Made by a program: the position numbers and the translations under genes
Shown: positions 28,033 through 52,429 of the stretch, piece after piece
How the letters are laid out: every line of letters starts with the position of its first letter
Numbering within the stretch: position 1 is the stretch's first letter
Notes under the pieces: model-generated
Told to the model about the DNA's origin: nothing
The model's database searches: none
What the model saw: only the letters and a program-made list of their open reading frames with translations
Assembly (NCBI GenBank): GCA_041600755.1
Contig: JBFIJL010000001.1
Coordinates: forward strand, 122,896 to 186,895
Direction of reading: 5' to 3'
Length of the DNA: 64,000 nucleotides
Source: Candidatus Saccharimonadales bacterium
GTDB lineage: Bacteria; Patescibacteriota; Saccharimonadia; Saccharimonadales; JAXHNE01

Positions 28033-28109
28033 GGCAGGATAGCTCAGTTGGTTAGAGCGCAGGACTCATAAGCCTGAGGTCCCGAGTTCAAATCTCGGTC
28101 CTGCTACCA
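28033..28109 (+). tRNA. tRNA with anticodon CAU (elongator Met or lysidine-modified Ile2), CCA encoded
   Basis: GGCAGGA/TCCTGCT acceptor, CAGGA-CTCATAA-GCCTG anticodon arm, CCGAG-TTCAAAT-CTCGG T-arm. Confidence 0.9.
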
Positions 28110-36912: not shown

Positions 36913-37524
36913 TTAGTTTCCGCCCTGCATGCCTCCACGCTTCGGTCCACCGTGTCCGCGGCCAGCTCCAAACATAACATCCTTTAGATCTATGTCATGT
37001 TCCTCTGCCCATGCTTCGAGGGAAGCTTTTACTTCACTTTGTGACGCTTCAAGCTCTGCTAGTTTCTCCTCGATTAAGATCTTTTGCTCGGCAGTAATTT
37101 CGCCGTCGGCGACAGCATCTTCAAGGTCACTTTCTCCACGCGAACCTTGAATAGCCACATATTTAAGGTCGACGCTATTCTCATCTGCCCATGCTTGCAG
37201 TGAATCACGATTTGCCTGTCGTTCGGTTTGCAGCTCTACGCGCTTTTCTTCGATTAAAATCTTTTGCTCGGCAGTAATTTCGCCTGCATCAACTTGTTCC
37301 TGTAGCTTTTCTGAGTAATCAGCGTCTATCTCTGCCTGGCGCAAATCACGCTCTTCATCTAGTACTGCCTGCACCTCGTCTTGACTTAGGTTAAATTTTT
37401 CAGCGATTGTGGCAGCTAAATCCGTACCCCCCATAATATGAGCCGACGCAGCCTGCACTCCCGCACCCATTACTCCTAGCCCAGCAATTGCACCAGTTAC
37501 TAAAAATGTCTTTGTTCGTTTCAT
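36913..37524 (-). CDS. Secreted protein with two ~60-aa internal repeats
   Basis: ATG 37524 with AAGGAG SD, signal peptide MKRTKTFLVTGAIAGLGVMGAGVQAASA, and the repeat GEITAEQKILIEEK...L.AWA.E...DLK present twice. Confidence 0.6.
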   Translation of the reverse strand: MKRTKTFLVTGAIAGLGVMGAGVQAASAHIMGGTDLAATIAEKFNLSQDEVQAVLDEERDLRQAEIDADYSEKLQEQVDAGEITAEQKILIEEKRVELQTERQANRDSLQAWADENSVDLKYVAIQGSRGESDLEDAVADGEITAEQKILIEEKLAELEASQSEVKASLEAWAEEHDIDLKDVMFGAGRGHGGPKRGGMQGGN

Positions 37525-37797
37525 AGCACTCCTTTTTTTATTGCTTATATAAATTTGTCGCACATGCATTTCATTGCCGCTGCAATCTACATGCTCAATT
37601 CGACTGCTGCTTTTTGAGGCAGCATCGCAATACTACCTGCCCAACTTGAGAATTAGCTGAACCCTCTCATGGAAGGGATTAAGCTTGCTTTGCCCTAAAG
37701 CAACTTGCTGGCGACTTTGCATTGAAGTGAGTTAGCATCGGATTTCAAGGAATTATTGTGCGACATATTGGTAAACTACGACTTCGATAATCGTAGA

Positions 37798-37825: not shown

Positions 37826-37862
37826 TAAGTAGTTGCTTAAACATTACATTAACAGGGAAGTC

Positions 37863-38153
37863 ATGCAGATACTCAACAGGTCAGATGAAACAACTTTAAA
37901 GCTCATGCAGATATTATCTGACGAGACTCGTTATAGATTGTTCAAAATACTGTCACGAGATGATCAACAATGCGTGAGTGAACTGTCGGCCCTGCTTGGG
38001 ATTTCTACTTCTGCCGTATCGCAACAGTTTCGAATTATGGAACTGAGTGGAATGGTTGCAAAAAAGCGCCACGGCCAGAAAATTTGTTACTTTGTTGATC
38101 AGAAAAGTCCGCTAGTGGCTCAATTTAAGAAACTTCAAGGAGGTTCAATATGA
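37863..38153 (+). CDS. ArsR/SmtB family transcriptional regulator
   Basis: LMQILSDETRYRLFKIL...CVSELSALLGISTSAVSQQFRIM HTH_5 pattern. The track's alternative TTG start is at 37833. Confidence 0.8.
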   Translation: MQILNRSDETTLKLMQILSDETRYRLFKILSRDDQQCVSELSALLGISTSAVSQQFRIMELSGMVAKKRHGQKICYFVDQKSPLVAQFKKLQGGSI

Positions 38154-38503
38154 GCGCAGAATTAGTAACCGCACTCGTCGTTTCTCATGCAATTCATAGC
38201 GCTGGTGAGACCACAAATGTATTATCAAAGTTAACTCGGCTATCCAGCGCGATAGATGGAAAAAAGTTGCCAAAATATCCAATGAATCTCGATACACGAC
38301 CAAAGGCTCTGGCTCTTGGATTTGGCATGACTGCCTTCTTTTGGGCAATATCTTACTTTATTTTACGAGCCATGAACCTCAATGACGAACCTTTGTATGT
38401 CATTGCACTGGTTTCGCTAATTGCGGCAGAAGCATATGGCACCATTCGTTTAGACACATTCCACGTTCGGATTGAACGCATTATTAAAAAGTTTTCAAAA
38501 TAA
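38150..38503 (+). CDS. Hypothetical membrane protein
   Basis: 117 aa with AGGAGG SD, an ATGA overlap with the arsR-like gene, and two TM helices. Confidence 0.55.
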   Translation: MSAELVTALVVSHAIHSAGETTNVLSKLTRLSSAIDGKKLPKYPMNLDTRPKALALGFGMTAFFWAISYFILRAMNLNDEPLYVIALVSLIAAEAYGTIRLDTFHVRIERIIKKFSK

Positions 38504-38512
38504 GGAGAATCT

Positions 38513-38767
38513 ATGTCAGCACCAACAATTACTATCTATAGCACGGCAACCTGCGGGTTTTGCAAAATGCTCAAAGGTTATCTACAGGATAAGGGTATCG
38601 ATTATAATGAGCTCCACGCCGATCAAGATCCAAAAGTTGCTCAAGACCTGTACGACAAAAGCGGCCAGCTGGGTGTTCCGTTTACAATCATCGAGAAAGA
38701 CGGCAAAACCGAGCAAATTCTTGGATTCGACCGAAAGAAAATTGACGAAATTTTGGAGATCAAATAA
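38513..38767 (+). CDS. Glutaredoxin-like protein (NrdH/YruB type)
   Basis: ITIYSTATCGFCKMLK CxxC motif and GVPFTII. 84 aa with AAGGAG SD. Confidence 0.85.
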   Translation: MSAPTITIYSTATCGFCKMLKGYLQDKGIDYNELHADQDPKVAQDLYDKSGQLGVPFTIIEKDGKTEQILGFDRKKIDEILEIK

Positions 38768-40282: not shown

Positions 40283-42961
40283 CTAATGAACTGCGTCGTG
40301 TTCCGGGTGAATTAATCTGTTGAGTGCTGGGTTAAGAAGTTTCATGGTAACGAACAGCACCACTGATCCGGCGGCCATAATCACCCAATCATGGGCTTCC
40401 AGTGGACCAACGTCAAAGTATTTCGCAAGTCCTGGCAGATACAAGACTGCAATCTGCAAGGCAAATGAAGAAACCAATGCCACAGTTAGCCAAGGATTCG
40501 CCAACCACTTAATTTTGTAATCTGTCCGGATATCTATAAGACGCACTAGTTCATACACCACCATAGTTGCAAATGCTGCCGAAACAGCCGCAAAATGACT
40601 TTCGCGAGTGCTGTTGTACCAGAACTGACCGATGAGTAGCATGCTCATCAACGAACCAAAGATGATGATTTCTGCCCAGACACGGCTAGTGATAATTGCT
40701 TCCTGGAAACGTTTTGGCTTGGATGACAAAATATTGCTTTGTGACGGGTCGGAGCCAAGTGCCACTGCCGGCAAGCCATCTGTTACGATGTTGATGAATA
40801 GCAGTTGTGCTGCCGTCAAAATCAAATCATTGAATATCAAGATACCTAACACTACCGCTATAACTTCAGCGATGTTGCAGCTAATCAAGAAATTAACAAA
40901 CTTTCGCACGTTATCGAATATACCGCGACCCTCTTCTATCGCGTTCACGATGGTCAAGAATTGATCATCGAGCAAAATAAGGTCAGCCGCTTCCTTGGCA
41001 ACATCGGTTCCAGTGATGCCCATTGCAATACCAATATCAGCTGCTTTGATGGCAGGTGCATCGTTGACGCCGTCGCCTGTCATTGCCACTTGATGACCAT
41101 GCTTCTTGAGAGCCTGAACAATGCGAATCTTGTGTTCTGGATTTACGCGGGCATAGACGCTAATCTCTTCTACCTTGTCTTCAAATTGCGCTTGGGTTAG
41201 GAGGTCAAGCTCTGGTCCAGAAATTGCCTCTCCCTTTAGTCCAATTTCTTTGGCAATCGCCTTTGCGGTCTCAACGTAGTCTCCGGTGATCATCACGACG
41301 CGCATTCCAGCCTCAGCCTGAACACGGTGAATAACCTCAATAACTTCTTTGCGCGGCGGGTCCATCATTGCCTGAAGTCCAACGAACGTCAAACCAGACT
41401 CTACCTTGCCCTTTGGTTCGGTCTTGGAATCTTTAAAAGCAAATGCAAGCACGCGAAGTGATTGAGATGCGTATTCCAAGTTTTGTGTCTTGATTGACTT
41501 CTTGACTGAATCAGTTAGCGCATGCGACTTGCCATCTCTCCCAACGTAGCTTGTACAAACCGCCAGCACTGATTCCAATGCACCCTTCGTGGCAACCGTG
41601 TAAGCATCTTTTCCCTTCACTACAACCGACATCATTTTACGTTCAGATGAAAATGGCACTTCTTTAACTCGGGAATAAGTGGCGTTTAATTTTGAAACAA
41701 GCTGTCCATTCTTGGCGGCCGACACAATCAATGCGCCTTCAGTTGGATCGCCAATGACGGCACCATCATGCAGTGATGAGTTATTGCAAAGTGCTCCAAT
41801 AAACAATAGCTGTTCTAGGTGTTTTGGCTTTTTATCAAACGTTCCTGTCGTTTCGTAACCTTCACCCGTAACATCTACTAAGGTCTCGTTAACCCACGCG
41901 TTACGAACCGTCATTTCTCCCTTGGTGAGCGTTCCGGTTTTGTCAGAACAAATCACATCTGTAGACCCTAGTGCCTCTACAGCTGACAGTTTGCGCACAA
42001 GTGCGTTTTTGCCGGCCATACGCCGCGCACCAAGCGCCAAACTAATACGCACCACAAATGCTAAGCCTTCAGGGATTGCAGCCACCGCAAGCGCAACGGC
42101 CGCAGTGAAGGCAAAAATAAGATGGTGTAGTGTCGACTGGCCCTCCTCCTTGACGAAGAAGAAAATAATCACAAACACCGCTGCACAAATTGCAGCGATA
42201 ACGTAACCAAGCTTTTTGCCAAGGTCATCGAGTTTTTGCTGCATGGGCGTTGCCTCAGTTTCTACATCGTTAACCAGCTGCGCAATCTTACCAATCTCGG
42301 TTTGTTGTGCCGTAGTTACCACCACACCGATGCCCGTGCCACTGGTCAAGAAAGTGCCGGCAAAAAGCATTGATTTTTGATCGCCAAGAGCCAGATTTCC
42401 TCTATAGACTGCCGCATTTTTGCTTACCGGCAACGACTCACCCGTAAGTGATGATTCGTTGGCTTTTAATTCCGTAGCTTCGATTATTCGAACGTCTGCA
42501 GGGATCTTCTGTCCAGCCTCAAGAAGCACGATATCGCCAGGCACCACATCGATTGCCTCAATCTCTACTGTTTCACCACCACGTCGCACGCGTGCTTTAA
42601 AGCCAACTAGCTGCTTGAGCGCTTCAACAGTTTTTTCGGCTTTGTATTCATTAAAGAACCCAACTAAGGCAATCGCAACTACAATCGCTATAATAAGCAA
42701 TGATTCTTTTACACTGCCGCCTTCTTCTAGGAATGCAACGCCAAATGACACTACCGCAGCAACAATTAGCACGATAACGAGAGCGTCTTTAAATTGATTT
42801 ATGAATAGCTGGAATGGATTAATTCGTTTCGAGCCATGCAGCTCATTCTTTCCATATTTCTTAAGGCGATTTCCTGCCTCTGATACCGACAAGCCCTTTG
42901 ACTCATCTACATCTAATTTTTTTACGACCGCTTTTGGACTAAGTTCGTACCACCGTGACAT
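40283..42961 (-). CDS. P-type cation-transporting ATPase (P2/Ca2+-ATPase-like)
   Basis: CSDKTGTLT phosphorylation site, TGDGVNDAPA hinge, and the P2-type N-terminal GLSVSEAGNRLKKYGKNEL. 892 aa. Confidence 0.93.
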   Translation of the reverse strand: MSRWYELSPKAVVKKLDVDESKGLSVSEAGNRLKKYGKNELHGSKRINPFQLFINQFKDALVIVLIVAAVVSFGVAFLEEGGSVKESLLIIAIVVAIALVGFFNEYKAEKTVEALKQLVGFKARVRRGGETVEIEAIDVVPGDIVLLEAGQKIPADVRIIEATELKANESSLTGESLPVSKNAAVYRGNLALGDQKSMLFAGTFLTSGTGIGVVVTTAQQTEIGKIAQLVNDVETEATPMQQKLDDLGKKLGYVIAAICAAVFVIIFFFVKEEGQSTLHHLIFAFTAAVALAVAAIPEGLAFVVRISLALGARRMAGKNALVRKLSAVEALGSTDVICSDKTGTLTKGEMTVRNAWVNETLVDVTGEGYETTGTFDKKPKHLEQLLFIGALCNNSSLHDGAVIGDPTEGALIVSAAKNGQLVSKLNATYSRVKEVPFSSERKMMSVVVKGKDAYTVATKGALESVLAVCTSYVGRDGKSHALTDSVKKSIKTQNLEYASQSLRVLAFAFKDSKTEPKGKVESGLTFVGLQAMMDPPRKEVIEVIHRVQAEAGMRVVMITGDYVETAKAIAKEIGLKGEAISGPELDLLTQAQFEDKVEEISVYARVNPEHKIRIVQALKKHGHQVAMTGDGVNDAPAIKAADIGIAMGITGTDVAKEAADLILLDDQFLTIVNAIEEGRGIFDNVRKFVNFLISCNIAEVIAVVLGILIFNDLILTAAQLLFINIVTDGLPAVALGSDPSQSNILSSKPKRFQEAIITSRVWAEIIIFGSLMSMLLIGQFWYNSTRESHFAAVSAAFATMVVYELVRLIDIRTDYKIKWLANPWLTVALVSSFALQIAVLYLPGLAKYFDVGPLEAHDWVIMAAGSVVLFVTMKLLNPALNRLIHPEHDAVH

Positions 42962-43043
42962 AGCTTTAGTTTCTTTTTACGTTACTGTTGTACTAATGGT
43001 ATAGTGTTTTTATAACATAAGCAAAAAGAGCGTGGGAGATTAT

Positions 43044-44171
43044 ATGGACGTATTAGCATCTGTAGATCTGGAAACACAAATAAGTGAATTAGCAATACGA
43101 ACAGTCGGCATATCGGCCGTAGCACTTGTGGTGTTTATCTTGATCGCAGTCATAGTAAATAAGGCACCCGAGAAAGTACAGAAGTATTTTAAACTTCCGC
43201 TATTTATCGGAATTGCCGGAGTAATGGCCGGAAGTACTTTAATATTGGCAATTAGCACAGTGTATTTGAATGTCAAAAGTGAATCTGGCGGCCCAGTGCA
43301 CTGGCATGCGGGTATCGAATTCTGGGCATGCGGTACTGAGTTCAACCTTCGTGATCCCCAGGGCGCACTTAGCAATAAAGTCGGAACTGCCACATATCAC
43401 GAGCACAACGATAAGTTCATTCACCTCGAAGGCGTTGTCGTAAAAAAGAGCGTTGATGCGTCACTTGATAAATTCATGAGAGTAACCGGTGGATACATTA
43501 CGCCAACATCTGTAGGCATTCCTTTGTCAGAAGATGAAGCAGCCTGGCCAATCACTGGTGACCAACGTGATGGTGATGTTGACAACACGGATCAACTTGC
43601 ACAAGTCACTGGTAATGGCGAACGAATTGGACAATCAGTTGATGGAAACGGTCCTGTACTCCAATTGCAAAATGGCGATCAATGCCCTGACGGCACTGAA
43701 GGTGAAGTGCAGGTCTATGCCTACCGCTTCAATAAAGACGACAACACATACACCCAAGAAAAATTAGAAGATCCAGGTAGCTATATTATGCGTGATGAGT
43801 CTTCGCTTGGACCTCCAAGTGACTGTGTTATCGTCGAATTTGGCCCACGTGCAGCTGCAACCGACAAAATATGTGAACAGTACGGAATCAAGGATGTGGA
43901 AAGGTGCACAGACTTTGGCGTTAAAACGTACAACGACGAACTTTGCTACATACGTGAGATCAACCGACCCGAGGAGGCACAAGATGAAGAGCTTCCTGTG
44001 AGTGATGAAACCTCATCTGAAACATGTTTGTACGACCCAGAGAATCCTACTGACTGCGGTAGCGATACACCAGAAACTAGCCTAAACCAAGATAGCTCAT
44101 GCCTAGCCGAAGAAGAGGCAGATTGTGACGATACAGTAACCGAACCCGCTCAACTGGAGGCGCCAGAATGA
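43044..44171 (+). CDS. Membrane-anchored, Cys- and His-rich exported protein with an acidic tail
   Basis: GGGAG SD before ATG 43044, two N-terminal TM helices, HWHAG/YHEHND His clusters and about 13 Cys. ATGA coupling to the next gene. Confidence 0.6.
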   Translation: MDVLASVDLETQISELAIRTVGISAVALVVFILIAVIVNKAPEKVQKYFKLPLFIGIAGVMAGSTLILAISTVYLNVKSESGGPVHWHAGIEFWACGTEFNLRDPQGALSNKVGTATYHEHNDKFIHLEGVVVKKSVDASLDKFMRVTGGYITPTSVGIPLSEDEAAWPITGDQRDGDVDNTDQLAQVTGNGERIGQSVDGNGPVLQLQNGDQCPDGTEGEVQVYAYRFNKDDNTYTQEKLEDPGSYIMRDESSLGPPSDCVIVEFGPRAAATDKICEQYGIKDVERCTDFGVKTYNDELCYIREINRPEEAQDEELPVSDETSSETCLYDPENPTDCGSDTPETSLNQDSSCLAEEEADCDDTVTEPAQLEAPE

Positions 44172-44872
44172 TAGACTTACCTACCCTTGGACTCGTAATC
44201 GGTTCAGCGGCAATTGATTCAATAAACCCTTGTGCTATTGGAGTGCTGATACTCATGGTCTCAGTTATTCTCGGTCAGGGCGGTGGCACAAAACGCCTAC
44301 TTCTAAATGGACTGGCCTACATTGGTGCAATATTTTTCACCTACCTCATAGCTGGGCTTGGTCTTGTGTACTTCTTTGCAGCGGTTCCAATTGTAATTGC
44401 TGAGTACCTCTCACTGTTCGTAGCTGCCCTTGTTGTGGTTGGCGGTATATTCGAAGTTAAAGATTACTTCTGGTACGGCAAAGGTTATAGTTTGCAGATA
44501 CCAGTGTATTTTGCCAATAAAATTCATGAATATTCTACAACCAAGACCAGCCTGTTTGGCGTCATGTTTCTTGGGGCATTCGTTGCAGCGGTTGAGTTGC
44601 CCTGCACTGGCGCACCATACCTAGCAATCATCACTATCTTGCGCATAGATTTTAATATGGTGGCATTCGGTCTCATGGTGCTCTACAACCTAATATTTGT
44701 CGCTCCGCTCATCATTATCCTATTCATGGTTGCTGGTGGTGCTAAGATTAGCGCAGTATCAAAATGGAAAGAAGAGAGCAAGGGCACCATGCGCCTATTC
44801 ATGGGGCTTCTGTTAGCAGTCCTTGGCTGGATCCTTATTCTCATCGCTAACGGAACGGTAAACTTCGGATAG
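44168..44872 (+). CDS. CcdA/DsbD-like thiol:disulfide electron transfer membrane protein
   Basis: Six TM helices with Cys in TM1 (SINPCAIGV) and TM4 (ELPCTGAPY), the DsbD_2/CcdA pattern. Confidence 0.75.
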   Translation: MIDLPTLGLVIGSAAIDSINPCAIGVLILMVSVILGQGGGTKRLLLNGLAYIGAIFFTYLIAGLGLVYFFAAVPIVIAEYLSLFVAALVVVGGIFEVKDYFWYGKGYSLQIPVYFANKIHEYSTTKTSLFGVMFLGAFVAAVELPCTGAPYLAIITILRIDFNMVAFGLMVLYNLIFVAPLIIILFMVAGGAKISAVSKWKEESKGTMRLFMGLLLAVLGWILILIANGTVNFG

Positions 44873-44875
44873 CCC

Positions 44876-45145
44876 ATGAAGCACATAATCAAACGCGGAA
44901 AACACACTGAGGGATACGACGATCGCAAACTTTATGCAAGTGTTTATGCAGCTTGTTTATCTGTTCGAGAACATCCGGGATCGGCAGAAATAATCGCCAA
45001 CCAGGTTGAGAAAGAAGTTAGCACATGGCTGGGGAAAAAGCACGAAGTTACATCCAATGACCTGAGAAGAGTTGCGCACGACGCACTCGCAGTCATTAAC
45101 CCAGATGCGGCTCATATATATGTACATCATCGGGTAATCTGGTAG
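44876..45145 (+). CDS. Stand-alone ATP-cone domain protein
   Basis: 89 aa. MKHIIKRGKHTEGYDDRKLYASV... matches the ATP-cone start pattern (V.KRdG..e.fd..Ki). Confidence 0.7.
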   Translation: MKHIIKRGKHTEGYDDRKLYASVYAACLSVREHPGSAEIIANQVEKEVSTWLGKKHEVTSNDLRRVAHDALAVINPDAAHIYVHHRVIW

Positions 45146-45154
45146 GAGTTCTCT

Positions 45155-46549
45155 ATGCACAAAACAAAACATTCAAGACCGGTTCACTTTGACTACGACC
45201 TAATTATTGTCGGCACAGGAGCTGGGGGTGGTGTTGCTGCTCATCAAGCTCGGATGGCTGGCAAAAAAGTAGCTGTTATCGAAGCCGAGAAACTTGGGGG
45301 TGAGTGCCCCAACTACGGCTGCGTCCCAACCAAAGCACTCTTGCAGGCCGCAGAGACATACAAATCTGCAAAGGAAGGCGAACGCTTTGGATTAAAAGCC
45401 AAAGACATTGGATTCGATTACAAAAAAATCAAAGCCTGGAAAACCGCTGCCGTAAACCACACCGGCGCAGAAGAGGGCGAAGCGTTTTATAAATGCGAGG
45501 GAATCGACGTAGTGCACGGTTATGGCCACTTTATCGATCCTTGGCGTATTACTGTTGGAGGAAAGCGATTTTCTGCCAAAAAATTTCTAATTGCAACCGG
45601 CACAAAATCTGTAGTTCCGCCAATTCCTGGTCTCGACACAACTGGCTACATCTCGTACCGTGAGGCGATAGACCTCGATGAACCACCAAAGTCACTGTTC
45701 GTAATTGGCGGCGGTGCAATTGGCTGTGAATTTGCTGAAGTGTTTTCGTCATTTGGAACCAAAGTACACATAGCCGACATGGCCCCCCGCTTGATTGCAC
45801 TTGAAGACGAAGATGTTGGCGAACTACTGGGAGCCCTATTTGCACAAAAAGGTATCAATGTGCACACCAGCGTTCGAGTTACTCGAGTTGCCAAAAAGGG
45901 CAACCAAAAAGTGGTCAGTATCGAGACGGGTGGCAAAACCCAAACAATCGCAGTTGATGAAATTCTGCTCGCCAGCGGAAAGGCAGCCAACACCGACCTG
46001 GGACTTGAGAACGCAGGTGTTGCCTACGATCGTAAGGGCATCACCGTAAACGACTTCATGCAAACTACTAGTAAGCATATCTACGCCGCTGGCGATGTTG
46101 TTGGGCCATATCGGTTTACGCACACTGCATCGTATCAGAGTAAAATTGCAGCACACAACATGTATCACCGTGAAGGCAAAATTAAAGCCAATTATCGAGC
46201 AATTCCCCGCTGTGTCTTCACCGATCCAGAAATTGCCTGTGTAGGTGAAACCGAAGCGCAACTAAAAGCCCGAGGCAAGCGCTATCAGGTTGGCGCAGTG
46301 CCAATCAGTGTTATCGGCCGCGCCAACACCAGCGGAGTCGAGAATGGCTTCGTTAAGGTCCTGGCTAGTAATTATGGAACCATCCTTGGCGCCAGCATTG
46401 TCAGCCCTAGAGCCGGTGAAATGATTCATGAGTTAACGCTAGCCGTGCAACATAAAATGACCGCCCGCCAAATCGCCGAAACAGTGCACGCCTTCCCTAC
46501 CTGGAGTGAAGCTGTTCGAAAAGCATGCCAAAAGCTTCAATCCCGCTAA
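45155..46549 (+). CDS. Class I pyridine nucleotide-disulfide oxidoreductase (dihydrolipoamide dehydrogenase-like)
   Basis: GTGAGG FAD motif, redox-active GGECPNYGCVPTK, a second Rossmann motif GGGAIGCE, and the C-terminal HAFPTWSE dimer-interface motif. Confidence 0.9.
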   Translation: MHKTKHSRPVHFDYDLIIVGTGAGGGVAAHQARMAGKKVAVIEAEKLGGECPNYGCVPTKALLQAAETYKSAKEGERFGLKAKDIGFDYKKIKAWKTAAVNHTGAEEGEAFYKCEGIDVVHGYGHFIDPWRITVGGKRFSAKKFLIATGTKSVVPPIPGLDTTGYISYREAIDLDEPPKSLFVIGGGAIGCEFAEVFSSFGTKVHIADMAPRLIALEDEDVGELLGALFAQKGINVHTSVRVTRVAKKGNQKVVSIETGGKTQTIAVDEILLASGKAANTDLGLENAGVAYDRKGITVNDFMQTTSKHIYAAGDVVGPYRFTHTASYQSKIAAHNMYHREGKIKANYRAIPRCVFTDPEIACVGETEAQLKARGKRYQVGAVPISVIGRANTSGVENGFVKVLASNYGTILGASIVSPRAGEMIHELTLAVQHKMTARQIAETVHAFPTWSEAVRKACQKLQSR

Positions 46550-46586
46550 AAATCTGCTATACTCATCTCTGTTAAGTCTAACCCGA

Positions 46587-46662
46587 GGGGGCGTAGCTCA
46601 GGGGTTAGAGCAGTCGGCTCATAACTGATTGGTCGTAGGTTCAAATCCTACCGCCCCCACCA
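46587..46662 (+). tRNA. tRNA with anticodon CAU (elongator Met or Ile2), CCA encoded
   Basis: GGGGGCG/CGCCCCC acceptor, GTCGG-CTCATAA-CTGAT anticodon arm, GTAGG-TTCAAAT-CCTAC T-arm. Confidence 0.9.
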
Positions 46663-46700
46663 TCGAGATATATTCCACCATGGGATCTATCTCGATTTTT
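46662..46700 (+). terminator. Hairpin terminator after the tRNA
   Basis: ATCGAGATA-N17-TATCTCGAT followed by TTTT. Confidence 0.6.
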
Positions 46701-46703
46701 AAT

Positions 46704-47225
46704 TTAGACTACTAGCATGAAAGCGGCCATTGCAAACATCAAGGCATCTTCCACGAAGCTAACTTTTGAGAGCGGTAGTTTAATCACCCTGCCTAAGCAT
46801 GCACACATAATGTTCGATTTGTTGCTTAGCTCCTTTAACACCCCTATCGATGCTACGCCGGTAATTATAAGTGTCACAAGGTTTAATAGTGCCGACCGGT
46901 CTAGCAGCAGATAAGACACGCCCAATATCGCCTCGACGAATGGGAAGGCATAGCCCCATAACGGAAAGCGTTTAGCCACTACATCATATGATTGATAGGT
47001 GACCGAGAATTCTTCGAGACTCAAAAACTTAAAAGTGGCAAAAACTATAAAGAAGACTGCCATGAAGTCACTCATGAATCTATGAAGACTAAATCCACGA
47101 GCCCAAGCCAAAAACACCGTAATTATAACTATACTGGCTATAACTCCAGCAAATTTTAGATATTCTCGCTTGTTATTGCTTTCGTCGTGCCCTAAGTGCA
47201 CATGTGCATCTTCGTGGTGATCCAT
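46704..47225 (-). CDS. MauE/DoxX-like membrane protein
   Basis: Four TM helices with a CACLG Cys motif as in the MauE family, and a His-rich N-terminus. Confidence 0.6.
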   Translation of the reverse strand: MDHHEDAHVHLGHDESNNKREYLKFAGVIASIVIITVFLAWARGFSLHRFMSDFMAVFFIVFATFKFLSLEEFSVTYQSYDVVAKRFPLWGYAFPFVEAILGVSYLLLDRSALLNLVTLIITGVASIGVLKELSNKSNIMCACLGRVIKLPLSKVSFVEDALMFAMAAFMLVV

Positions 47226-49309: not shown

Positions 49310-50158
49310 TTATTTTACAACCAGTAGCACCCAGAAGAAGAGCATGGCTCCCATGATCATATTTATGCGAGGGAAATATGTGTAGTAGCGAAAGAATGCC
49401 TCTTTTGTGGCAGTTTTGGACGACACATACATTAACCATAGGTAGAGAAGTCCGCCAGCTAGCGCGAACCAACCAAGATATTGATACGAAAGAATAGCAG
49501 CGGCTGCGTAGTTAAATGCGCAAAAGATAAGTGTATTTTGCTTGCCAAGTACAGTTGCAATGGTTTTAATTTTAGCTTTCTGATCAGCTCGAATATCTGG
49601 TATCGCCGAGAAGGCATGCATGGCTGCGCACCAAAACATGCCAGCAAGGAAAAGCTGCAGTGCAGGATATGAGCCACCGGTAAGCAGTCCGTAGCTCACC
49701 AACGCAGGAAATACGTAAAGCACATTAAAATAAGCATCCAAAAATGGCTTGGTCTTGGCTCGGATTGGCGGCACTGAGTAGCCTAGACCAAAGAAATAGA
49801 AGCCTGTCATCGCCCACTTCACCGCCTGTGGAACTGAAGGAGGTAGAACAAGAAGTAATCCAAGCATACCCATCAAAGTCAAAATTCGTAGCACTCCCTG
49901 TCGATGATCGGGGCTCAATAGTTGCTCGTATCCCTGTTTTTTTGAATTGTGCTTGTCGGTTTCGTAGTCAAAAACGTCGTTAAACCCATATATGAGTAAA
50001 TTGGCAGGAACAGTGAAAAACAGACCGAGTGCAAGCAGCCTGAAAGAAAATACCTGATTAGGAGCGGCAACGATACCGATCAAAAAGGGACCAAGCAAAT
50101 AAACCCAGAATCGTGGTCGGCTTAATCGCAAAAGTGGGCTTCGTTGACGACTACTCAT
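49310..50158 (-). CDS. UbiA-family prenyltransferase (lycopene elongase LyeJ/CrtEb-like by context)
   Basis: NDVFDYETD (NDxxDxxxD) and a second Asp-rich region. SRPRFW N-terminus and about eight TM helices. ATG 50158; the track's TTG is at 50176. Confidence 0.75.
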   Translation of the reverse strand: MSSRQRSPLLRLSRPRFWVYLLGPFLIGIVAAPNQVFSFRLLALGLFFTVPANLLIYGFNDVFDYETDKHNSKKQGYEQLLSPDHRQGVLRILTLMGMLGLLLVLPPSVPQAVKWAMTGFYFFGLGYSVPPIRAKTKPFLDAYFNVLYVFPALVSYGLLTGGSYPALQLFLAGMFWCAAMHAFSAIPDIRADQKAKIKTIATVLGKQNTLIFCAFNYAAAAILSYQYLGWFALAGGLLYLWLMYVSSKTATKEAFFRYYTYFPRINMIMGAMLFFWVLLVVK

Positions 50159-50175
50159 GTGCGATAATTGTAGCA

Positions 50176-50859
50176 ATGAATCTAGAAAATGTACCGAATG
50201 TTATTGCTTTGATTGCCCCGATAATTGGAATTATCTTATTTGCAGTACCAAGTTACTTCGGTGTACTCAAGCAACGAAAGACATTAGGACTGTTTATATT
50301 AATCATCCTTGGGGTGTACGCCTTAGCGGTTGAAACGGCAGCAATCAAAACTGGTTTTCCTTATGGATCATTCAGCTATACCGATGTTCTTGGCCCAAAA
50401 TTACTTGATACCACTCCATGGGCGGTGGCTTTTGCTTATCCACCAATTTTGCTTGGTGCATTCTGGCTGGCGAGCAAGTTTACTCGCTCATTTCCACGCA
50501 TAATTCTAGCGGCAATATTTGCAACTATAGTGGATGTTGTTCTTGACCCAGCTATCGTGAAACTTGAATTTTGGGCCTGGGAAACACCAGGAGCATTTTA
50601 TGGAGTTCCTTGGATTAACTTTGCTGGGTGGCTGCTCAGTGGCCTCGTGGGCGCCTTCATCTTGCATATACTCTGGGGCAAGGATCATCGCGTCAAGGCT
50701 CCTGTAGCTTACAGTGGGCTGTCTGTGCTGTTGTTTTGGACTGGCGTTAACGCTGGAGTGGCACAGAAGATTCCATTTGGCATAGGTGCCGCCTATGCAC
50801 TTCTCATTTTGATAATTATCATAATAGAAAAGCAGCAATTTAAAGGAGAAGATGAGTAA
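50176..50859 (+). CDS. Carotenoid biosynthesis membrane protein (CruF/PF04240-like)
   Basis: Polytopic, with FPYGSFSYTDVLGPKL...PWAVAFAY resembling the Caroten_synth family. An 8-nt overlap couples it to the desaturase gene. Confidence 0.6.
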   Translation: MNLENVPNVIALIAPIIGIILFAVPSYFGVLKQRKTLGLFILIILGVYALAVETAAIKTGFPYGSFSYTDVLGPKLLDTTPWAVAFAYPPILLGAFWLASKFTRSFPRIILAAIFATIVDVVLDPAIVKLEFWAWETPGAFYGVPWINFAGWLLSGLVGAFILHILWGKDHRVKAPVAYSGLSVLLFWTGVNAGVAQKIPFGIGAAYALLILIIIIIEKQQFKGEDE

Positions 50860-52429
50860 GTCCGCTCTGATCATAGGGTCGGGATTTGGTGGACTAGGAT
50901 CAGCATGCTTACTCTCTAAAGCGGGCTACGATGTCACTGTGCTTGAAAAAAACGAAATGGTTGGGGGACGAGCAAGCGTCTTTAATGTTAAAAAAAACCG
51001 CTACGGAACATGGGCTGTAAGCACCAATAAAAAAACAGTTGGGCGTAAACCAGAGTCGTTCCGCTTTGACATGGGGCCAAGTTGGTACTTGATGCCTGAT
51101 GTATTTGAACACTTCTTCGAATTGATTGGAGAAGACGTAAATAAGCTTCTAGACCTTGAAAAGCTTGGACCAAGTTATCGAATATTCTACAAAGACACAT
51201 CCAAAAGTGTCGATATCTATTCTGATCTAAAGCGCGACCTCAAAACAATCGAATCCATCGAAGATGGTGCCGGCGAAGCACTAAATCGCTATCTAGATCA
51301 GGCTGGCTACCAGTATGAAGTTGCCAAAGATAGATTTATGTACAAAAACTACGACTCTATCAAAGATTTCTTCACCAAAGAAATGGCGGTTGAGGGTCGT
51401 AAGCTTAGTGTGCTTGCAAACATGGACAAGCATGTGCGCAAGTATTTCAAGACTGATGCCATGCAAAAAATCATGCAATATCCACTCGTATTCCTAGGCT
51501 CAAGCCCATACAATACCCCGGCGATTTACAACATCATGAGCCATATCGACTTCAATATGGGGGTGTTTTATCCACAAGGTGGCATTTACGAAATTACTGA
51601 GTCTTTGGCTGGAATTGCAAAGAAACACGGCACAAAGTTTAAGATAAACACACCAGTAAAAAAAATAATTGTCGAGAACGGCAAGGCGGTTGGTGTAAAG
51701 CTAGAAAACGGCAAGGACCTACGGGCAGATATCGTCATTAGTAACGCAGATATTTATCACACCGAGCACACACTACTAGATGAAAAGCACCGCACAAAGT
51801 CCAAAAAATACTGGGACAAGCGCACACTGGCACCAAGTGCCCTGATCATGTACCTGGGCGTAAAGGGCAAGTTACCATCTTTGACGCATCACAATCTTTT
51901 GTTCAGCAAAGACTGGAAACAAAATTTTGCCGAAATTTTTGATAAGCCACAATGGCCAAGCGATCCAAGCCTGTACGTCTGTAATCCAAGCAAAACCGAC
52001 TCGAGCACTGCTCCAAAAGGACATGAAAACTTATTTGTGCTTGTGCCGATTGCGCCAGGCCTGACTTACACCGAAAAGCAGCTCGAAAAATATGCTGACA
52101 CCATCCTGGCAACTATGGAAACCGAGATGAAACTGACTGGGCTGCGCGATCAAATTGTCTATAAGCGCCTGTTTAGCGTCAAGGATTTCTTTGCCCGCTA
52201 CAACAGCCAAGGCGGCACTGCACTTGGCCTAGCCCACACTCTCAAGCAAACGGCCGTATTTCGACCAAATAACATCAGTAAAAAAGTGAAAAACCTTTAT
52301 TTTGTAGGAGCTGGCACAAATCCGGGCATTGGGATGCCAATCACTCTTATTAGTGCCGAACTTATGTACAAGCGCCTGATTGGAGACAAAACGTCTGGCC
52401 CTCTAACGGAAAAACAGTTGCAGAAATAA
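50852..52429 (+). CDS. Phytoene desaturase family enzyme (CrtI/CrtD-like)
   Basis: N-terminal IIGSGFGGLG...VLEKN...GGRA FAD fold. 525 aa with the C-terminal FVGAGTNPGIGMP motif of CrtI-type desaturases. Confidence 0.88.
   Translation: MSKSALIIGSGFGGLGSACLLSKAGYDVTVLEKNEMVGGRASVFNVKKNRYGTWAVSTNKKTVGRKPESFRFDMGPSWYLMPDVFEHFFELIGEDVNKLLDLEKLGPSYRIFYKDTSKSVDIYSDLKRDLKTIESIEDGAGEALNRYLDQAGYQYEVAKDRFMYKNYDSIKDFFTKEMAVEGRKLSVLANMDKHVRKYFKTDAMQKIMQYPLVFLGSSPYNTPAIYNIMSHIDFNMGVFYPQGGIYEITESLAGIAKKHGTKFKINTPVKKIIVENGKAVGVKLENGKDLRADIVISNADIYHTEHTLLDEKHRTKSKKYWDKRTLAPSALIMYLGVKGKLPSLTHHNLLFSKDWKQNFAEIFDKPQWPSDPSLYVCNPSKTDSSTAPKGHENLFVLVPIAPGLTYTEKQLEKYADTILATMETEMKLTGLRDQIVYKRLFSVKDFFARYNSQGGTALGLAHTLKQTAVFRPNNISKKVKNLYFVGAGTNPGIGMPITLISAELMYKRLIGDKTSGPLTEKQLQK

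What the first reader, a model, noticed from the sequence alone, without database searches (positions are those of the whole stretch)
43044..47225. Thiol-redox operon: Cys/His-rich exported protein - CcdA-like - stand-alone ATP-cone - flavoprotein disulfide reductase, flanked by a MauE-like protein
Seen: four co-directional, tightly spaced genes (ATGA overlap at 44168; 3-nt and 9-nt gaps). The first is a 375-aa membrane-anchored protein with about 13 Cys and His clusters (HWHAG, YHEHND). The second is a 6-TM CcdA/DsbD_2-like protein with the two TM cysteines. The third is an 89-aa protein that is only an ATP-cone. The fourth is a class I FAD/NAD(P)H disulfide reductase (GGECPNYGCVPTK, HAFPTWSE). 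Downstream across a tRNA lies a MauE/DoxX-like protein, and a P2-type ATPase is divergent upstream. Established: CcdA/DsbD pass reducing equivalents from cytoplasmic thioredoxin to the cell exterior, and ATP-cones are nucleotide-sensing regulatory domains best known from NrdR and ribonucleotide reductases. Inference: this could be a self-contained NAD(P)H-to-exterior electron relay serving the Cys-rich ectoprotein, possibly gated by nucleotide status through the ATP-cone. No thioredoxin-fold protein is encoded in the operon, so the direct electron donor to CcdA is unclear. I am not aware of this combination being described.
Basis: partly seen in the sequence, partly recalled or inferred. Interest (0 to 1): 0.55.

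Follow-up and report, generated by a model that had tools for sequence, protein, structure and literature searches.

The report
Conserved CPR membrane thiol-metal cassette
Five tightly linked genes (a cation pump, a metal-binding surface protein of unknown fold, a CcdA-like membrane thiol carrier, a tiny ATP-sensing protein and an unusual NADH flavoenzyme) are kept together across ultra-small bacteria and archaea, and they look like an undescribed system that passes reducing power across the membrane to a metal site on the cell surface.

Summary
The four genes are real and sit exactly as described. They are part of a larger unit. In 80 related genome loci from Saccharibacteria, other CPR phyla and DPANN archaea, the order ectoprotein, CcdA-like, ATP-cone, reductase is kept. 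A P2A-type cation ATPase is adjacent in 55 of 62 loci; ZIP or CorA takes that place in two archaeal loci.

The ectoprotein faces outward. It has no Pfam match and no fold match, a conserved five-His/Asp/Glu site, and a universal Cys96-Cys214 pair. The membrane protein is a remote DsbD/CcdA-superfamily member with both Pro-Cys motifs invariant. The reductase resembles lipoamide dehydrogenase but never has the catalytic His (Phe or Tyr instead, as in MerA), and it is never next to E1/E2 genes. The ATP-cone protein is mis-annotated as NrdR.

One natural variant lineage has lost the ectoprotein and the pump, the membrane protein's two cysteines and the reductase's three. This argues that they work as one thiol pathway.

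Best reading (about 45%): NADH, dedicated reductase and CcdA-like protein keep a surface metal-binding protein reduced, and that protein works with a cation transporter; the ATP-cone acts as an optional nucleotide gate. Electron direction, the metal and the substrate are untested. I found no publication describing this cassette.

The parts
40283..42961 (-). P2A-type (Ca2+/Mn2+-like) cation-transporting ATPase, 892 aa, divergent from the operon
   Evidence: Pfam E1-E2_ATPase, Cation_ATPase_N and Cation_ATPase_C. NCBIfam TIGR01517 scores 522.6 against a cut-off of 507. The best solved relative is Listeria LMCA1 at 594 bits, with SERCA-like PEGL, N..E and N..TD pore motifs. It is adjacent to the ectoprotein gene in 55 of 62 loci: 36 divergent and 19 co-directional.
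42976..43005 (+). Promoter-like site: TTTACG, 18 nt, TG-n-TATAGT (extended -10)
   Evidence: Consensus scan. Such sites are not more frequent than chance in this region, but the TGnTATAGT element is conserved at this position in related loci.
43016..43025 (+). Conserved CATAAGCAAA element between the -10 box and the ribosome-binding site; candidate operator
   Evidence: It is the only exact copy in the 64-kb window. TGNTATAGT-N10-CATAAGC occurs exactly once in each of 15 loci from the Saccharibacteria-type group, always just upstream of the ectoprotein gene. Some loci carry tandem or inverted copies.
43044..44171 (+). Outward-facing metal-site protein of unknown fold ('CysHis'), 375 aa. Two N-terminal membrane helices are followed by an acidic ectodomain. 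Conserved site: H86, H88, E92, H119, H121, D123, H127, E129. Inferred disulfide pairs: C96-C214, C261-C277, C288-C301.
   Evidence: No Pfam family even at E<=10. AF2 model pLDDT 77, with no Foldseek match in PDB or BFVD. Conservation in 195 homologs and joint loss of cysteines in pairs. The family is small: 344 representatives among 1.84 billion proteins.
44168..44872 (+). CcdA-like six-helix membrane protein, 234 aa, with invariant 'IDSINPC22' and 'VELPC146TGAPY' motifs. A cytoplasmic loop (KDYFWYGKG.SL.IP) and an outward tail (LIANGT.NFG) are also conserved.
   Evidence: Pfam SfLAP matches 17 of 20 relatives and DsbD_TM 3 of 20. NCBIfam matches the DsbD membrane region at 2.5e-5. JGI names relatives CcdA. 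Alignment A2. Identity to the window is 52-92% across bacteria and archaea. Adjacent to the ectoprotein gene in 72 of 74 loci.
44876..45145 (+). Stand-alone ATP-cone protein, 89 aa
   Evidence: PF03477 at 32.2 bits against a cut-off of 25.8. Family conservation: K6, R7, K18, E38, Y82, H85, R86. There is no room for a zinc ribbon upstream. Adjacent in 60 of 71 loci. JGI and NCBI annotate relatives as NrdR.
45155..46549 (+). Group-1 flavoprotein disulfide-reductase homolog, 464 aa. 'GGEC51PNxxC56' is invariant, Phe or Tyr replaces the catalytic His, there is a Cys near the C-terminus (C458), and an NADH-type acidic residue follows the second GxGxxG.
   Evidence: TIGR01350 scores 418 against 408.8; MerA scores 390 against 454. 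In PDB, Lpd 2eq6 scores 271 bits and MerA 4ywo 252 bits. Position 447 is F in 34, Y in 23 and H in none; 55 of 57 have a tail Cys. Within 2 kb of the CcdA-like gene in 48 of 59 loci.

Best explanation
This is a self-contained membrane module for thiol and metal handling, found in CPR bacteria and DPANN archaea.

Core (shown by synteny). The core is an outward-facing metal-binding protein plus a dedicated CcdA/DsbD-superfamily membrane protein.

Mechanism (inferred). The two intramembrane Pro-Cys cysteines (C22, C146) carry reducing equivalents outward. These keep the ectoprotein's universal C96-C214 pair reduced. That pair sits in the same strand as the HxH of the five-His/Asp/Glu site, so reduction would let the site bind, release or reduce a metal ion. 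The ectoprotein would work together with the cation transporter that is almost always encoded beside it: a P2A ATPase here, ZIP or CorA in some archaea.

Electron donor (inferred from co-occurrence and joint cysteine loss). In most CPR lineages the donor is not thioredoxin. It is a dedicated NADH-dependent reductase that looks like lipoamide dehydrogenase but lacks the catalytic His and is encoded in the operon.

Regulation (inferred). The 89-aa ATP-cone is an optional cytoplasmic regulator. It would tie electron export to ATP/dATP status, probably by docking on the conserved cytoplasmic loop of the membrane protein.

Not determined: the metal, the final substrate and the direction of flow.
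For: Synteny over 80 loci from several CPR phyla and DPANN:
- CcdA-like adjacent to the ectoprotein gene in 72 of 74 loci.
- ATP-cone adjacent in 60 of 71.
- Reductase within 2 kb in 48 of 59.
- ATPase adjacent in 55 of 62.
- No other gene is shared by more than 15 loci, and there is no thioredoxin.

Modularity:
- Archaeal loci keep only the pair, or the pair plus the ATP-cone.
- Six loci have the reductase directly after the CcdA-like gene, with no room for an ATP-cone.

Thiol-carrier hallmarks. Both Pro-Cys motifs are invariant, including in a paralog that sits between a VKOR-thioredoxin fusion and DoxX.

Ectoprotein:
- Outward topology.
- The metal-type residues are conserved in 159-186 of 195 homologs.
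- C96 is present in 194 of 195 and C214 in 190 of 195.
- The other cysteines are lost only in pairs.

Natural 'knock-out'. In two variant lineages (L081-83 and L085-87) the ectoprotein and the ATPase are absent. Together with this, the membrane protein has lost both cysteines (hhalign 97.6% to the family) and the reductase has lost C51, C56 and the tail Cys.

Transporter swap. ZIP (1.4e-45) or CorA (1.2e-72) flank the pair where the ATPase is missing.

Precedent. DsbD, CcdA and ScsB use two membrane cysteines to export electrons to envelope proteins (PMC3322552).
Against: - The reductase lacks the His base that characterised disulfide reductases use. Its active site is normally buried. I know of no case where such an enzyme reduces a CcdA directly.
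- The ectoprotein has no CxxC motif and no thioredoxin fold, unlike every known CcdA/DsbD/ScsB acceptor.
- Pfam places the membrane protein closer to SfLAP than to DsbD_TM. No solved CcdA or DsbD is found by sequence.
- The cysteine-free trio persists under apparent selection, so membrane protein + ATP-cone + flavoprotein also has a function that needs no thiols.
- The role of a Ca2+-type pump is not explained mechanistically.
- C96-C214 may be a purely structural disulfide.
Confidence: 0.45

Rival explanations
1. Inward metal relay like the mer system. The ectoprotein captures a thiophilic or redox-active metal ion. It hands the ion to the two membrane cysteines of the CcdA-like protein, acting as a thiol-lined permease like MerT. 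The ion then passes to the tail Cys and the C51/C56 pair of the MerA-like flavoenzyme, which reduces it with NADH. The ATPase deals with the cation balance.
For: - The reductase has Tyr or Phe where MerA has Tyr (MerA position recalled from memory), with the same spacing to the Glu, plus a conserved Cys near the C-terminus.
- MerA is nearly as close as Lpd: 390 vs 418 bits in NCBIfam and 252 vs 271 bits in PDB.
- From memory, the LysE/DsbD superfamily also holds metal transporters. The best Pfam match is not DsbD.
- The ectoprotein has a His/Asp/Glu site.
- All cysteines are lost together with the ectoprotein in the variant, which fits a thiolate relay as well as an electron relay.
Against: - The MerA score is below its cut-off. 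There is no C-terminal Cys pair and no NmerA domain.
- Phe in 34 of 57 sequences cannot ligate a metal.
- At least 7 loci with room downstream lack any reductase, and several archaeal loci are among them. A reduce-to-detoxify system could not work there.
- A separate cation transporter is nearly always adjacent, which makes a second permease redundant.
- The cassette looks like a housekeeping unit: normal GC content and presence across many habitats.
Confidence: 0.17
2. Accessory subunit of the pump. The two-helix, disulfide-bonded ectoprotein would be a beta-subunit-like partner of the P2A ATPase, comparable to the Na,K-ATPase beta subunit or CDC50. The CcdA-like protein and the reductase would only serve to fold or isomerise its disulfides.
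For: The ATPase is adjacent in 55 of 62 loci and co-directional (same strand, short gap) in 19. The ectoprotein has a confidently modelled helical hairpin and three inferred disulfides. Its ectodomain is very acidic, with 63 D+E against 21 K+R.
Against: - The ectoprotein/CcdA-like pair occurs without the ATPase, next to ZIP, CorA or no transporter at all.
- P2A pumps such as LMCA1 work without subunits (from memory).
- An invariant five-His site is not explained by a scaffold role.
- There is no fold similarity to known beta subunits.
Confidence: 0.1
3. Ordinary genes that are merely neighbours. The reductase would be a plain dihydrolipoyl dehydrogenase or a low-molecular-weight-thiol reductase. 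The ATP-cone protein would be a truncated NrdR. The CcdA-like protein would be fed by thioredoxin as usual.
For: TIGR01350 is passed narrowly, 418.4 against 408.8. Databases name the ATP-cone protein NrdR. A glutaredoxin-like gene lies 4.3 kb upstream in the window.
Against: - The catalytic His is absent in all 57 sequences.
- There are no E1/E2 genes near any locus.
- There is no zinc ribbon and no room for one.
- Order and tight spacing are kept across phyla and across domains.
- The cysteines are lost in concert in the variant.
- The glutaredoxin is syntenic in only 3 loci.
Confidence: 0.08

Closest known systems
CcdA / DsbD / ScsB membrane electron transporters (PMC3322552)
   Same: A membrane protein with two similarly placed intramembrane cysteines, each after a Pro. 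It is encoded next to its dedicated extracytoplasmic partner. There are weak but consistent sequence links to the DsbD membrane domain.
   Different: The known classes take electrons from thioredoxin and give them to a thioredoxin-fold CxxC protein or domain. Here no thioredoxin is encoded. A dedicated flavoprotein and an ATP-cone sit in the operon, and the partner has a new fold with a metal site and no CxxC. This protein is far more conserved than usual for CcdA (52-92% identity across domains) and does not reach Pfam's DsbD_TM cut-off.
Envelope copper and metal thiol systems: ScsB/ScsC, and TlpA with Sco (TlpA/Sco from memory; ScsB from PMC3322552)
   Same: Reducing power exported through a DsbD-type protein keeps the cysteines of an envelope metal-handling protein reduced.
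   Different: Those acceptors are thioredoxin-like. There is no dedicated NADH reductase, no ATP-cone and no linked P2A, ZIP or CorA transporter.
mer operon (MerP, MerT, MerA), from memory
   Same: The same three-layer layout: an outer metal binder, a membrane protein with cysteines, and a cytoplasmic group-1 flavoprotein with an aromatic residue in place of the catalytic His and a C-terminal Cys.
   Different: There is no homology to MerP or MerT. The MerA model is below its cut-off, there is a single tail Cys, and there is no NmerA domain. The reductase is optional in some lineages.
Dihydrolipoyl dehydrogenase (E3)
   Same: Best overall similarity, including the dimerisation domain. FAD and NADH motifs and the CxxxxC are present.
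   Different: The HAH-PTxSE catalytic His is always Phe or Tyr. The active-site motif is the unusual invariant GGECPN. There are no E1/E2 or lipoyl-protein neighbours.
ATP-cone of NrdR and ribonucleotide reductases (PMC9110341, PMC11226230)
   Same: Pfam ATP-cone, with the N-terminal K-R and the later Lys conserved.
   Different: It is a free-standing 89-aa protein with no zinc ribbon and no RNR. It is encoded between a membrane thiol carrier and a flavoprotein. No paper in the searched library describes this context.
Bacterial P2A Ca2+-ATPase LMCA1 / SERCA
   Same: 594 bits to LMCA1. DKTGT, PEGL and the TM5/TM6 ion-site residues are conserved.
   Different: I know of no P2A pump that is genetically coupled to a thiol-redox module.

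Membership tests
CcdA/DsbD-superfamily thiol-disulfide electron transporter | Two conserved cysteines inside membrane helices 1 and 4, each preceded by Pro | tested here: met
   C22 in 'NPC' and C146 in 'LPC' are invariant in 20 of 20 diverse relatives, including a paralog. The NCBIfam DsbD match spans residues 19-212 against model positions 184-374, the membrane domain.
CcdA/DsbD-superfamily thiol-disulfide electron transporter | Sequence membership: Pfam DsbD_TM (PF02683) at its curated cut-off, or similarity to a solved CcdA/DsbD | tested here: not met
   The window protein matches only SfLAP, at 28.3 bits against a cut-off of 35. DsbD_TM matches 3 of 20 relatives, best 6e-6. There is no PDB sequence match, even with a profile.
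CcdA/DsbD-superfamily thiol-disulfide electron transporter | About six membrane helices with both ends outside | tested here: inconclusive
   Hydropathy and K/R counts fit six helices with an N-out/C-out arrangement. The single-sequence AF2 model was unusable, pLDDT 53.
CcdA/DsbD-superfamily thiol-disulfide electron transporter | Acceptor is an exported thioredoxin-fold CxxC protein | tested here: not met
   The invariant partner has no CxxC motif and no fold match to anything in PDB.
CcdA/DsbD-superfamily thiol-disulfide electron transporter | Cytoplasmic donor is thioredoxin | not testable with these tools
   No thioredoxin is conserved in the neighbourhood. A glutaredoxin-like gene lies 4.3 kb away in only 3 loci.
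Dihydrolipoyl dehydrogenase (E3) | NCBIfam TIGR01350 above its cut-off, with the redox-active CxxxxC | tested here: met
   418.4 against 408.8. C51 and C56 are invariant in 58 of 58 sequences.
Dihydrolipoyl dehydrogenase (E3) | Catalytic His-Glu pair (HAH-PTxSE) | tested here: not met
   The His position is F in 34, Y in 23 and H in 0. The Glu position is E in 47 and Q in 10.
Dihydrolipoyl dehydrogenase (E3) | Works with E1/E2 or another lipoyl protein | tested here: not met
   None within 10 kb in the 59 loci that carry the reductase, and none within about 15 kb in the window. The rest of the genome was not examined.
Mercuric reductase MerA | TIGR02053 cut-off, C-terminal Cys pair, NmerA domain | tested here: not met
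   390 against 454. There is a single tail Cys in 55 of 57 sequences and no N-terminal extension.
Mercuric reductase MerA | Tyr in place of the catalytic His | tested here: inconclusive
   Tyr in 23 of 57 sequences and Phe in 34 of 57, including the window.
NrdR | N-terminal zinc ribbon followed by an ATP-cone | tested here: not met
   The ATP-cone starts at residue 2. The gene starts 3 nt after the stop codon of the previous gene. All 56 relatives are 85-99 aa long.
ATP-cone domain | Pfam PF03477 above its cut-off, with conserved basic residues for the phosphates | tested here: met
   32.2 against 25.8 bits. K6 in 61 of 62, R7 in 59 of 62, K18 in 62 of 62. Nucleotide binding itself was not tested.
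P2A Ca2+-type ATPase | P-type motifs and Ca2+-site residues in TM4, TM5 and TM6 | tested here: met
   DKTGT, PEGL, N..E and N..TD are conserved. TIGR01517 scores 522.6 against 507. The transported ion was not tested.

The most novel reading that the evidence does not exclude
CPR bacteria and DPANN archaea lack respiratory chains. They may possess a thiol 'wire' driven by NADH, running from a His-less flavoprotein through a CcdA-like protein. This wire would power a membrane-anchored surface metalloenzyme of a new fold. In most lineages that enzyme would mature to an N-terminal His, as in copper 'histidine-brace' enzymes. The system would then be a redox-active cell-surface organ: a metal reductase, an oxidant scavenger or an oxidative enzyme acting on the host surface. 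Its output would be throttled by a free-standing ATP-cone, which would be the first use of that domain outside ribonucleotide reduction.
Probability: 0.2. Interest if true: 0.8.

Novelty: new variant of a known kind. Interest (0 to 1): 0.62.

Why it matters
CPR and DPANN organisms make up a large share of microbial diversity. They have tiny genomes, and most of their conserved membrane proteins have no assigned function. This cassette is one of the few multi-gene units kept in order across several CPR phyla and in DPANN archaea.

If the model holds, it would add three things:
- A fourth way of feeding DsbD-type transporters, through a dedicated NADH flavoprotein instead of thioredoxin.
- A new class of acceptor: a metal-site protein of new fold, linked to a cation transporter.
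- A new job for the ATP-cone.

It also corrects current annotation. The names 'NrdR', 'dihydrolipoyl dehydrogenase' and 'cytochrome c biogenesis CcdA' are misleading in organisms that mostly lack cytochromes c and lipoyl enzymes (the latter statement is from memory).

The naturally cysteine-free variant offers a ready-made comparison for experiments.

Tried and rejected
- Fold assignment of the ectoprotein. The AF2 model (pLDDT 77) gave no Foldseek match in PDB (best E 0.2) or BFVD. Pfam found nothing at E<=10, and longer family members carry no fused domain. I considered Cu,Zn-SOD, cupin, thioredoxin-like and metallo-beta-lactamase readings of the His motifs and dropped them for lack of any match.
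- Structure of the CcdA-like protein. I submitted a single sequence instead of an alignment, and the model was unusable (pLDDT 53).
- PDB sequence search for CcdA/DsbD relatives found none, even with a profile.
- An apparent CcdA/ATP-cone fusion in the clustering was an artefact of an N-masked run in L016.
- A thioredoxin inside the unit: none found. The glutaredoxin-like gene at 38513-38767 is local synteny only.
- Recent horizontal transfer into this genome: GC content is flat.
- Source names for the window proteins: none on record.
- Literature: seven of the eight searches looked for a paper that joins ATP-cone, CcdA, a P-type ATPase or this reductase in CPR/DPANN. None was found.

Full report
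OBSERVATION

The junctions read exactly as described: an ATGA overlap at 44168-44171, then 3-nt and 9-nt gaps. The first gene most likely starts at ATG 43044, 6 nt after a GGGAG; relatives start at the same place.

Pfam and NCBIfam give the following:
- Gene 1 matches nothing.
- Gene 2 has a sub-threshold SfLAP match and a weak match to the DsbD membrane domain.
- Gene 3 is a bona fide ATP-cone (32 bits against a cut-off of 25.8).
- Gene 4 is a group-1 flavoprotein disulfide-reductase homolog. Lipoamide dehydrogenase scores 418 against 408.8, and MerA scores 390 against 454.

A tRNA-Met and a MauE-family protein follow. A P2-type ATPase is divergent upstream. The organism is a Candidatus Saccharibacteria MAG.

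- Gene 1 has 10 Cys and only 5 His.
- It is anchored by a two-helix hairpin.
- 'HAFPTWSE' carries Phe where E3 enzymes have the catalytic His.

THE UNIT IS LARGER AND WIDELY CONSERVED

A genome scan with an alignment of gene-1 relatives returned 80 loci. They come from Saccharibacteria, Levy-, Woyke-, Nomura- and Parcubacteria, and from DPANN archaea. Some records are labelled Gammaproteobacteria, but their proteins are 60-77% identical to those of Levybacteria.

tblastn with the window proteins gave these counts, out of loci with enough flanking sequence:
- CcdA-like gene directly after gene 1: 72 of 74.
- ATP-cone next: 60 of 71.
- Reductase within 2 kb: 48 of 59.
- P-type ATPase adjacent upstream: 55 of 62 (36 divergent as here, 19 co-directional).

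Clustering of all flanking ORFs found no other gene in more than 15 loci, and no thioredoxin.

The unit is modular:
- Archaeal and some CPR loci keep only the pair, or the pair plus the ATP-cone.
- Six loci have the reductase directly after the CcdA-like gene, with no room for an ATP-cone.
- At least seven loci keep the ATP-cone but lack the reductase.
- Where the ATPase is missing, L071 carries a ZIP transporter directly downstream and DoxX upstream. L072 carries CorA directly upstream.

MauE is a neighbour only in the closest relatives (6-8 loci). DoxX and VKOR do recur, however.

THE PARTS

Ectoprotein
- Topology. The AF2 model (pLDDT 77) has two long N-terminal helices with a K-rich connecting loop, followed by an alpha/beta domain. 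This puts both the N-terminus and the domain outside.
- N-terminus in other lineages. At least 50 of 80 non-Saccharibacteria family representatives begin with a signal-peptide-like segment ending A-x-A|H-E/G-E/D. This confirms the outward orientation and suggests a mature N-terminal His.
- No known fold. There is no Foldseek match in PDB or BFVD and no Pfam match.
- Small family. An exhaustive profile search found only 344 representatives among 1.84 billion proteins.
- Conserved metal-type site. In 195 homologs, H86, H88, H119, H121, D123, H127 and E129 are each kept in 175-186.
- Cysteines. C96 (194 of 195) and C214 (190 of 195) are universal. C261 and C277 are lost together in 24 sequences, against 3 single losses. 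C288 and C301 occur only together. I therefore infer three disulfides. The universal C96-C214 pair lies in the same strand as the HxH.
- Charge. The ectodomain is strongly acidic.

CcdA-like protein
- It has 3,639 detectable relatives, which JGI names CcdA.
- Identity to the window protein is 52-92% even in archaea.
- 'IDSINPC22' and 'VELPC146TGAPY' are invariant, also in a paralog. These resemble the SPC and PCTGP contexts of B. subtilis CcdA (from memory).
- A cytoplasmic loop (KDYFWYGKG.SL.IP) and the outward C-terminal tail (LIANGT.NFG) are also near-invariant. This suggests protein contacts on both faces (inference).
- Formal membership is weak. SfLAP matches 17 of 20 relatives and DsbD_TM 3 of 20. 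No solved relative is found by sequence.
- In L074 the paralog lies between a VKOR-thioredoxin fusion and DoxX, directly upstream of the cassette. That is a thiol-redox setting.

ATP-cone
- K6, R7, K18, E38, Y82, H85 and R86 are conserved. C27 is present in 50 of 62.
- There is no zinc ribbon and no space for one.
- Databases call it NrdR, which is wrong.

Reductase
- It is closest to Lpd (T. thermophilus 2eq6, 271 bits) and nearly as close to MerA (4ywo, 252 bits).
- GGEC51PNxxC56 is invariant in 58 of 58 sequences.
- The catalytic-His position is F in 34, Y in 23 and never H. The Glu position is E in 47 and Q in 10.
- A Cys within about 12 residues of the C-terminus is present in 55 of 57.
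- An acidic residue or Asn follows the second GxGxxG, which suggests NADH.
- From memory, Tyr at this position is the MerA pattern, and Phe occurs in 2-KPCC. Both enzymes act on something other than a simple disulfide.

ATPase
- The best solved relative is Listeria LMCA1 (594 bits), and the ion-site residues are SERCA-like.

A NATURAL EXPERIMENT

Distant relatives of the ATP-cone protein led to two lineages, L081-83 and L085-87. There the trio of membrane protein, ATP-cone and flavoprotein persists, but four things have changed:
- The ectoprotein and the ATPase are absent within 8 kb.
- The membrane protein is still homologous (hhalign 97.6%), but it has lost both cysteines. It reads 'IHTSFQLSV' and 'AELLFIFAPIL'.
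- The flavoprotein reads 'GGDSPNWSD(I/V)PTK', so both active-site cysteines are gone.
- The flavoprotein has also lost the tail Cys.

Five cysteines in two proteins were lost together with the ectoprotein. This is the strongest evidence here that reductase, membrane protein and ectoprotein form one thiol pathway. It also shows that the trio has some function that does not depend on thiols.

MECHANISM

Best reading (0.45). Reducing equivalents flow from NADH through the dedicated reductase to the CcdA-like protein, and from there to the ectoprotein's C96-C214 pair. This keeps or switches a surface metal site that cooperates with the adjacent cation transporter. The ATP-cone is an optional nucleotide-dependent gate.

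What is shown and what is inferred:
- Shown: synteny, topology, conservation, and the coupled loss of cysteines.
- Inferred: direction of flow, direct reductase-to-CcdA transfer, metal binding, and nucleotide control.

Main difficulties:
- The reductase lacks the acid-base His.
- The acceptor is not thioredoxin-like.
- The role of a Ca2+-type pump is unexplained.

Rivals:
- A mer-like inward thiolate relay (0.17).
- A beta-subunit-like accessory of the pump (0.10).
- Unrelated neighbours (0.08).

COMPARISON AND NOVELTY

[quoted passage not shown] This cassette keeps the two-cysteine membrane core but differs at both ends. It also adds an ATP-cone, a domain known from NrdR and ribonucleotide reductases (PMC9110341, PMC11226230), and a cation transporter.

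Seven of the eight literature searches looked for a description of this combination and found none. I rate it a new variant of a known kind, with real uncertainty about its function.

REGULATION (SIDE RESULT)

Upstream of gene 1, an extended -10 box (TGGTATAGT) is followed 10 nt later by CATAAGCAAA. That is the only exact copy in the window. The same arrangement is conserved just upstream of gene 1 in 15 loci of the Saccharibacteria-type group. It is a candidate operator specific to the cassette.

Noticed in passing
L081:7273-11076, L085:7277-9680: A cysteine-free version of the trio: a membrane protein without either Cys, an ATP-cone, and a flavoprotein reading 'GGDSPNWSD'. It lacks the ectoprotein and the pump. 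In one lineage glucose-6-phosphate dehydrogenase follows it. In the other, a NOX-like ferric reductase plus a cupredoxin lie about 4 kb away.
   Followed up: partly
P0265-P0389; L065, L071, L072, L074, L077, L078, L080: Most non-Saccharibacteria homologs of the ectoprotein start with a signal-peptide-like segment ending A-x-A|H-E/G-E/D. The mature protein would then begin with His followed by acidic residues, as in copper 'histidine-brace' proteins. This rests on a regex only; no signal-peptide predictor was run.
   Followed up: partly
window 43016-43025 (and 42998-43005): CATAAGCAAA lies 10 nt after an extended -10 box. It is unique in the window and conserved at the same place in 15 related loci. 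Some loci carry tandem CATAAGCATAAGC or an inverted GCTTATG upstream. It is a candidate operator, and the binding factor is unknown.
   Followed up: partly
window 35137-37569: A histidine kinase, an OmpR-type response regulator and a secreted 218-aa protein with two 'GEITAEQKILIEEK' repeats (no Pfam match). A homolog of the regulator lies downstream of the reductase in 8 related loci, which suggests a link to an envelope-stress two-component system.
   Followed up: partly
window 37833-38767: An ArsR-family regulator, a 117-aa membrane protein and an 84-aa glutaredoxin-like protein (CGFC motif). They are syntenic only in the 3 closest loci. The glutaredoxin-like protein is a possible alternative thiol donor.
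   Followed up: partly
window 46704-47225 (-): The MauE-family protein has a His-rich N-terminus (MDHHEDAHVHLGHDE), which is conserved in the L002 homolog. It looks like a metal-binding tail. DoxX/MauE-type proteins also flank the cassette in L071 and L074.
   Followed up: no
L074:4182-6179: A VKOR-thioredoxin fusion, a paralog of the CcdA-like protein (42% identical, both Pro-Cys motifs kept) and DoxX lie directly upstream of the ATPase/ectoprotein/CcdA-like/ATP-cone block. A second VKOR lies downstream. Together they form a compact membrane thiol-redox island.
   Followed up: partly
window 49310-52429: A carotenoid-type gene set in a Saccharibacteria genome: a UbiA prenyltransferase, a Caroten_synth protein (PF04240, 3e-43) and a CrtI-like amine-oxidase-family desaturase.
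   Followed up: no
L038, L042, L046, L047, L053, L054, L062-64, L067, L075; also L036, L052, L058: Public records labelled Gammaproteobacteria (including a 1.6-Mb 'chromosome', OZ246394.1), Magnetospirillaceae, Limnocylindrales or Lysobacterales carry cassettes. For the seven of these loci that were compared (L038, L042, L046, L047, L052, L054, L058, L063 minus none lacking data), the proteins are 57-77% identical to those of Levybacteria. These are probably mislabelled CPR genomes.
   Followed up: partly
L066 (Nanoarchaeia), L065/L070/L080 (Woesearchaeota): Archaeal loci carry the cassette, with a CcdA-like protein 52-64% identical to the bacterial one. L066 has all five genes in the Levybacteria-type order. 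This points either to transfer between domains or to mis-binning.
   Followed up: no
window 28033-28109, 29272-29346, 46587-46662: There are three tRNA-Met (CAT) genes within 19 kb. One sits between the reductase gene and the MauE-like gene.
   Followed up: no
window 32994-33401: A methionine sulfoxide reductase B (SelR, 9e-42) lies about 10 kb upstream. It is another thiol-dependent repair enzyme in the region.
   Followed up: no
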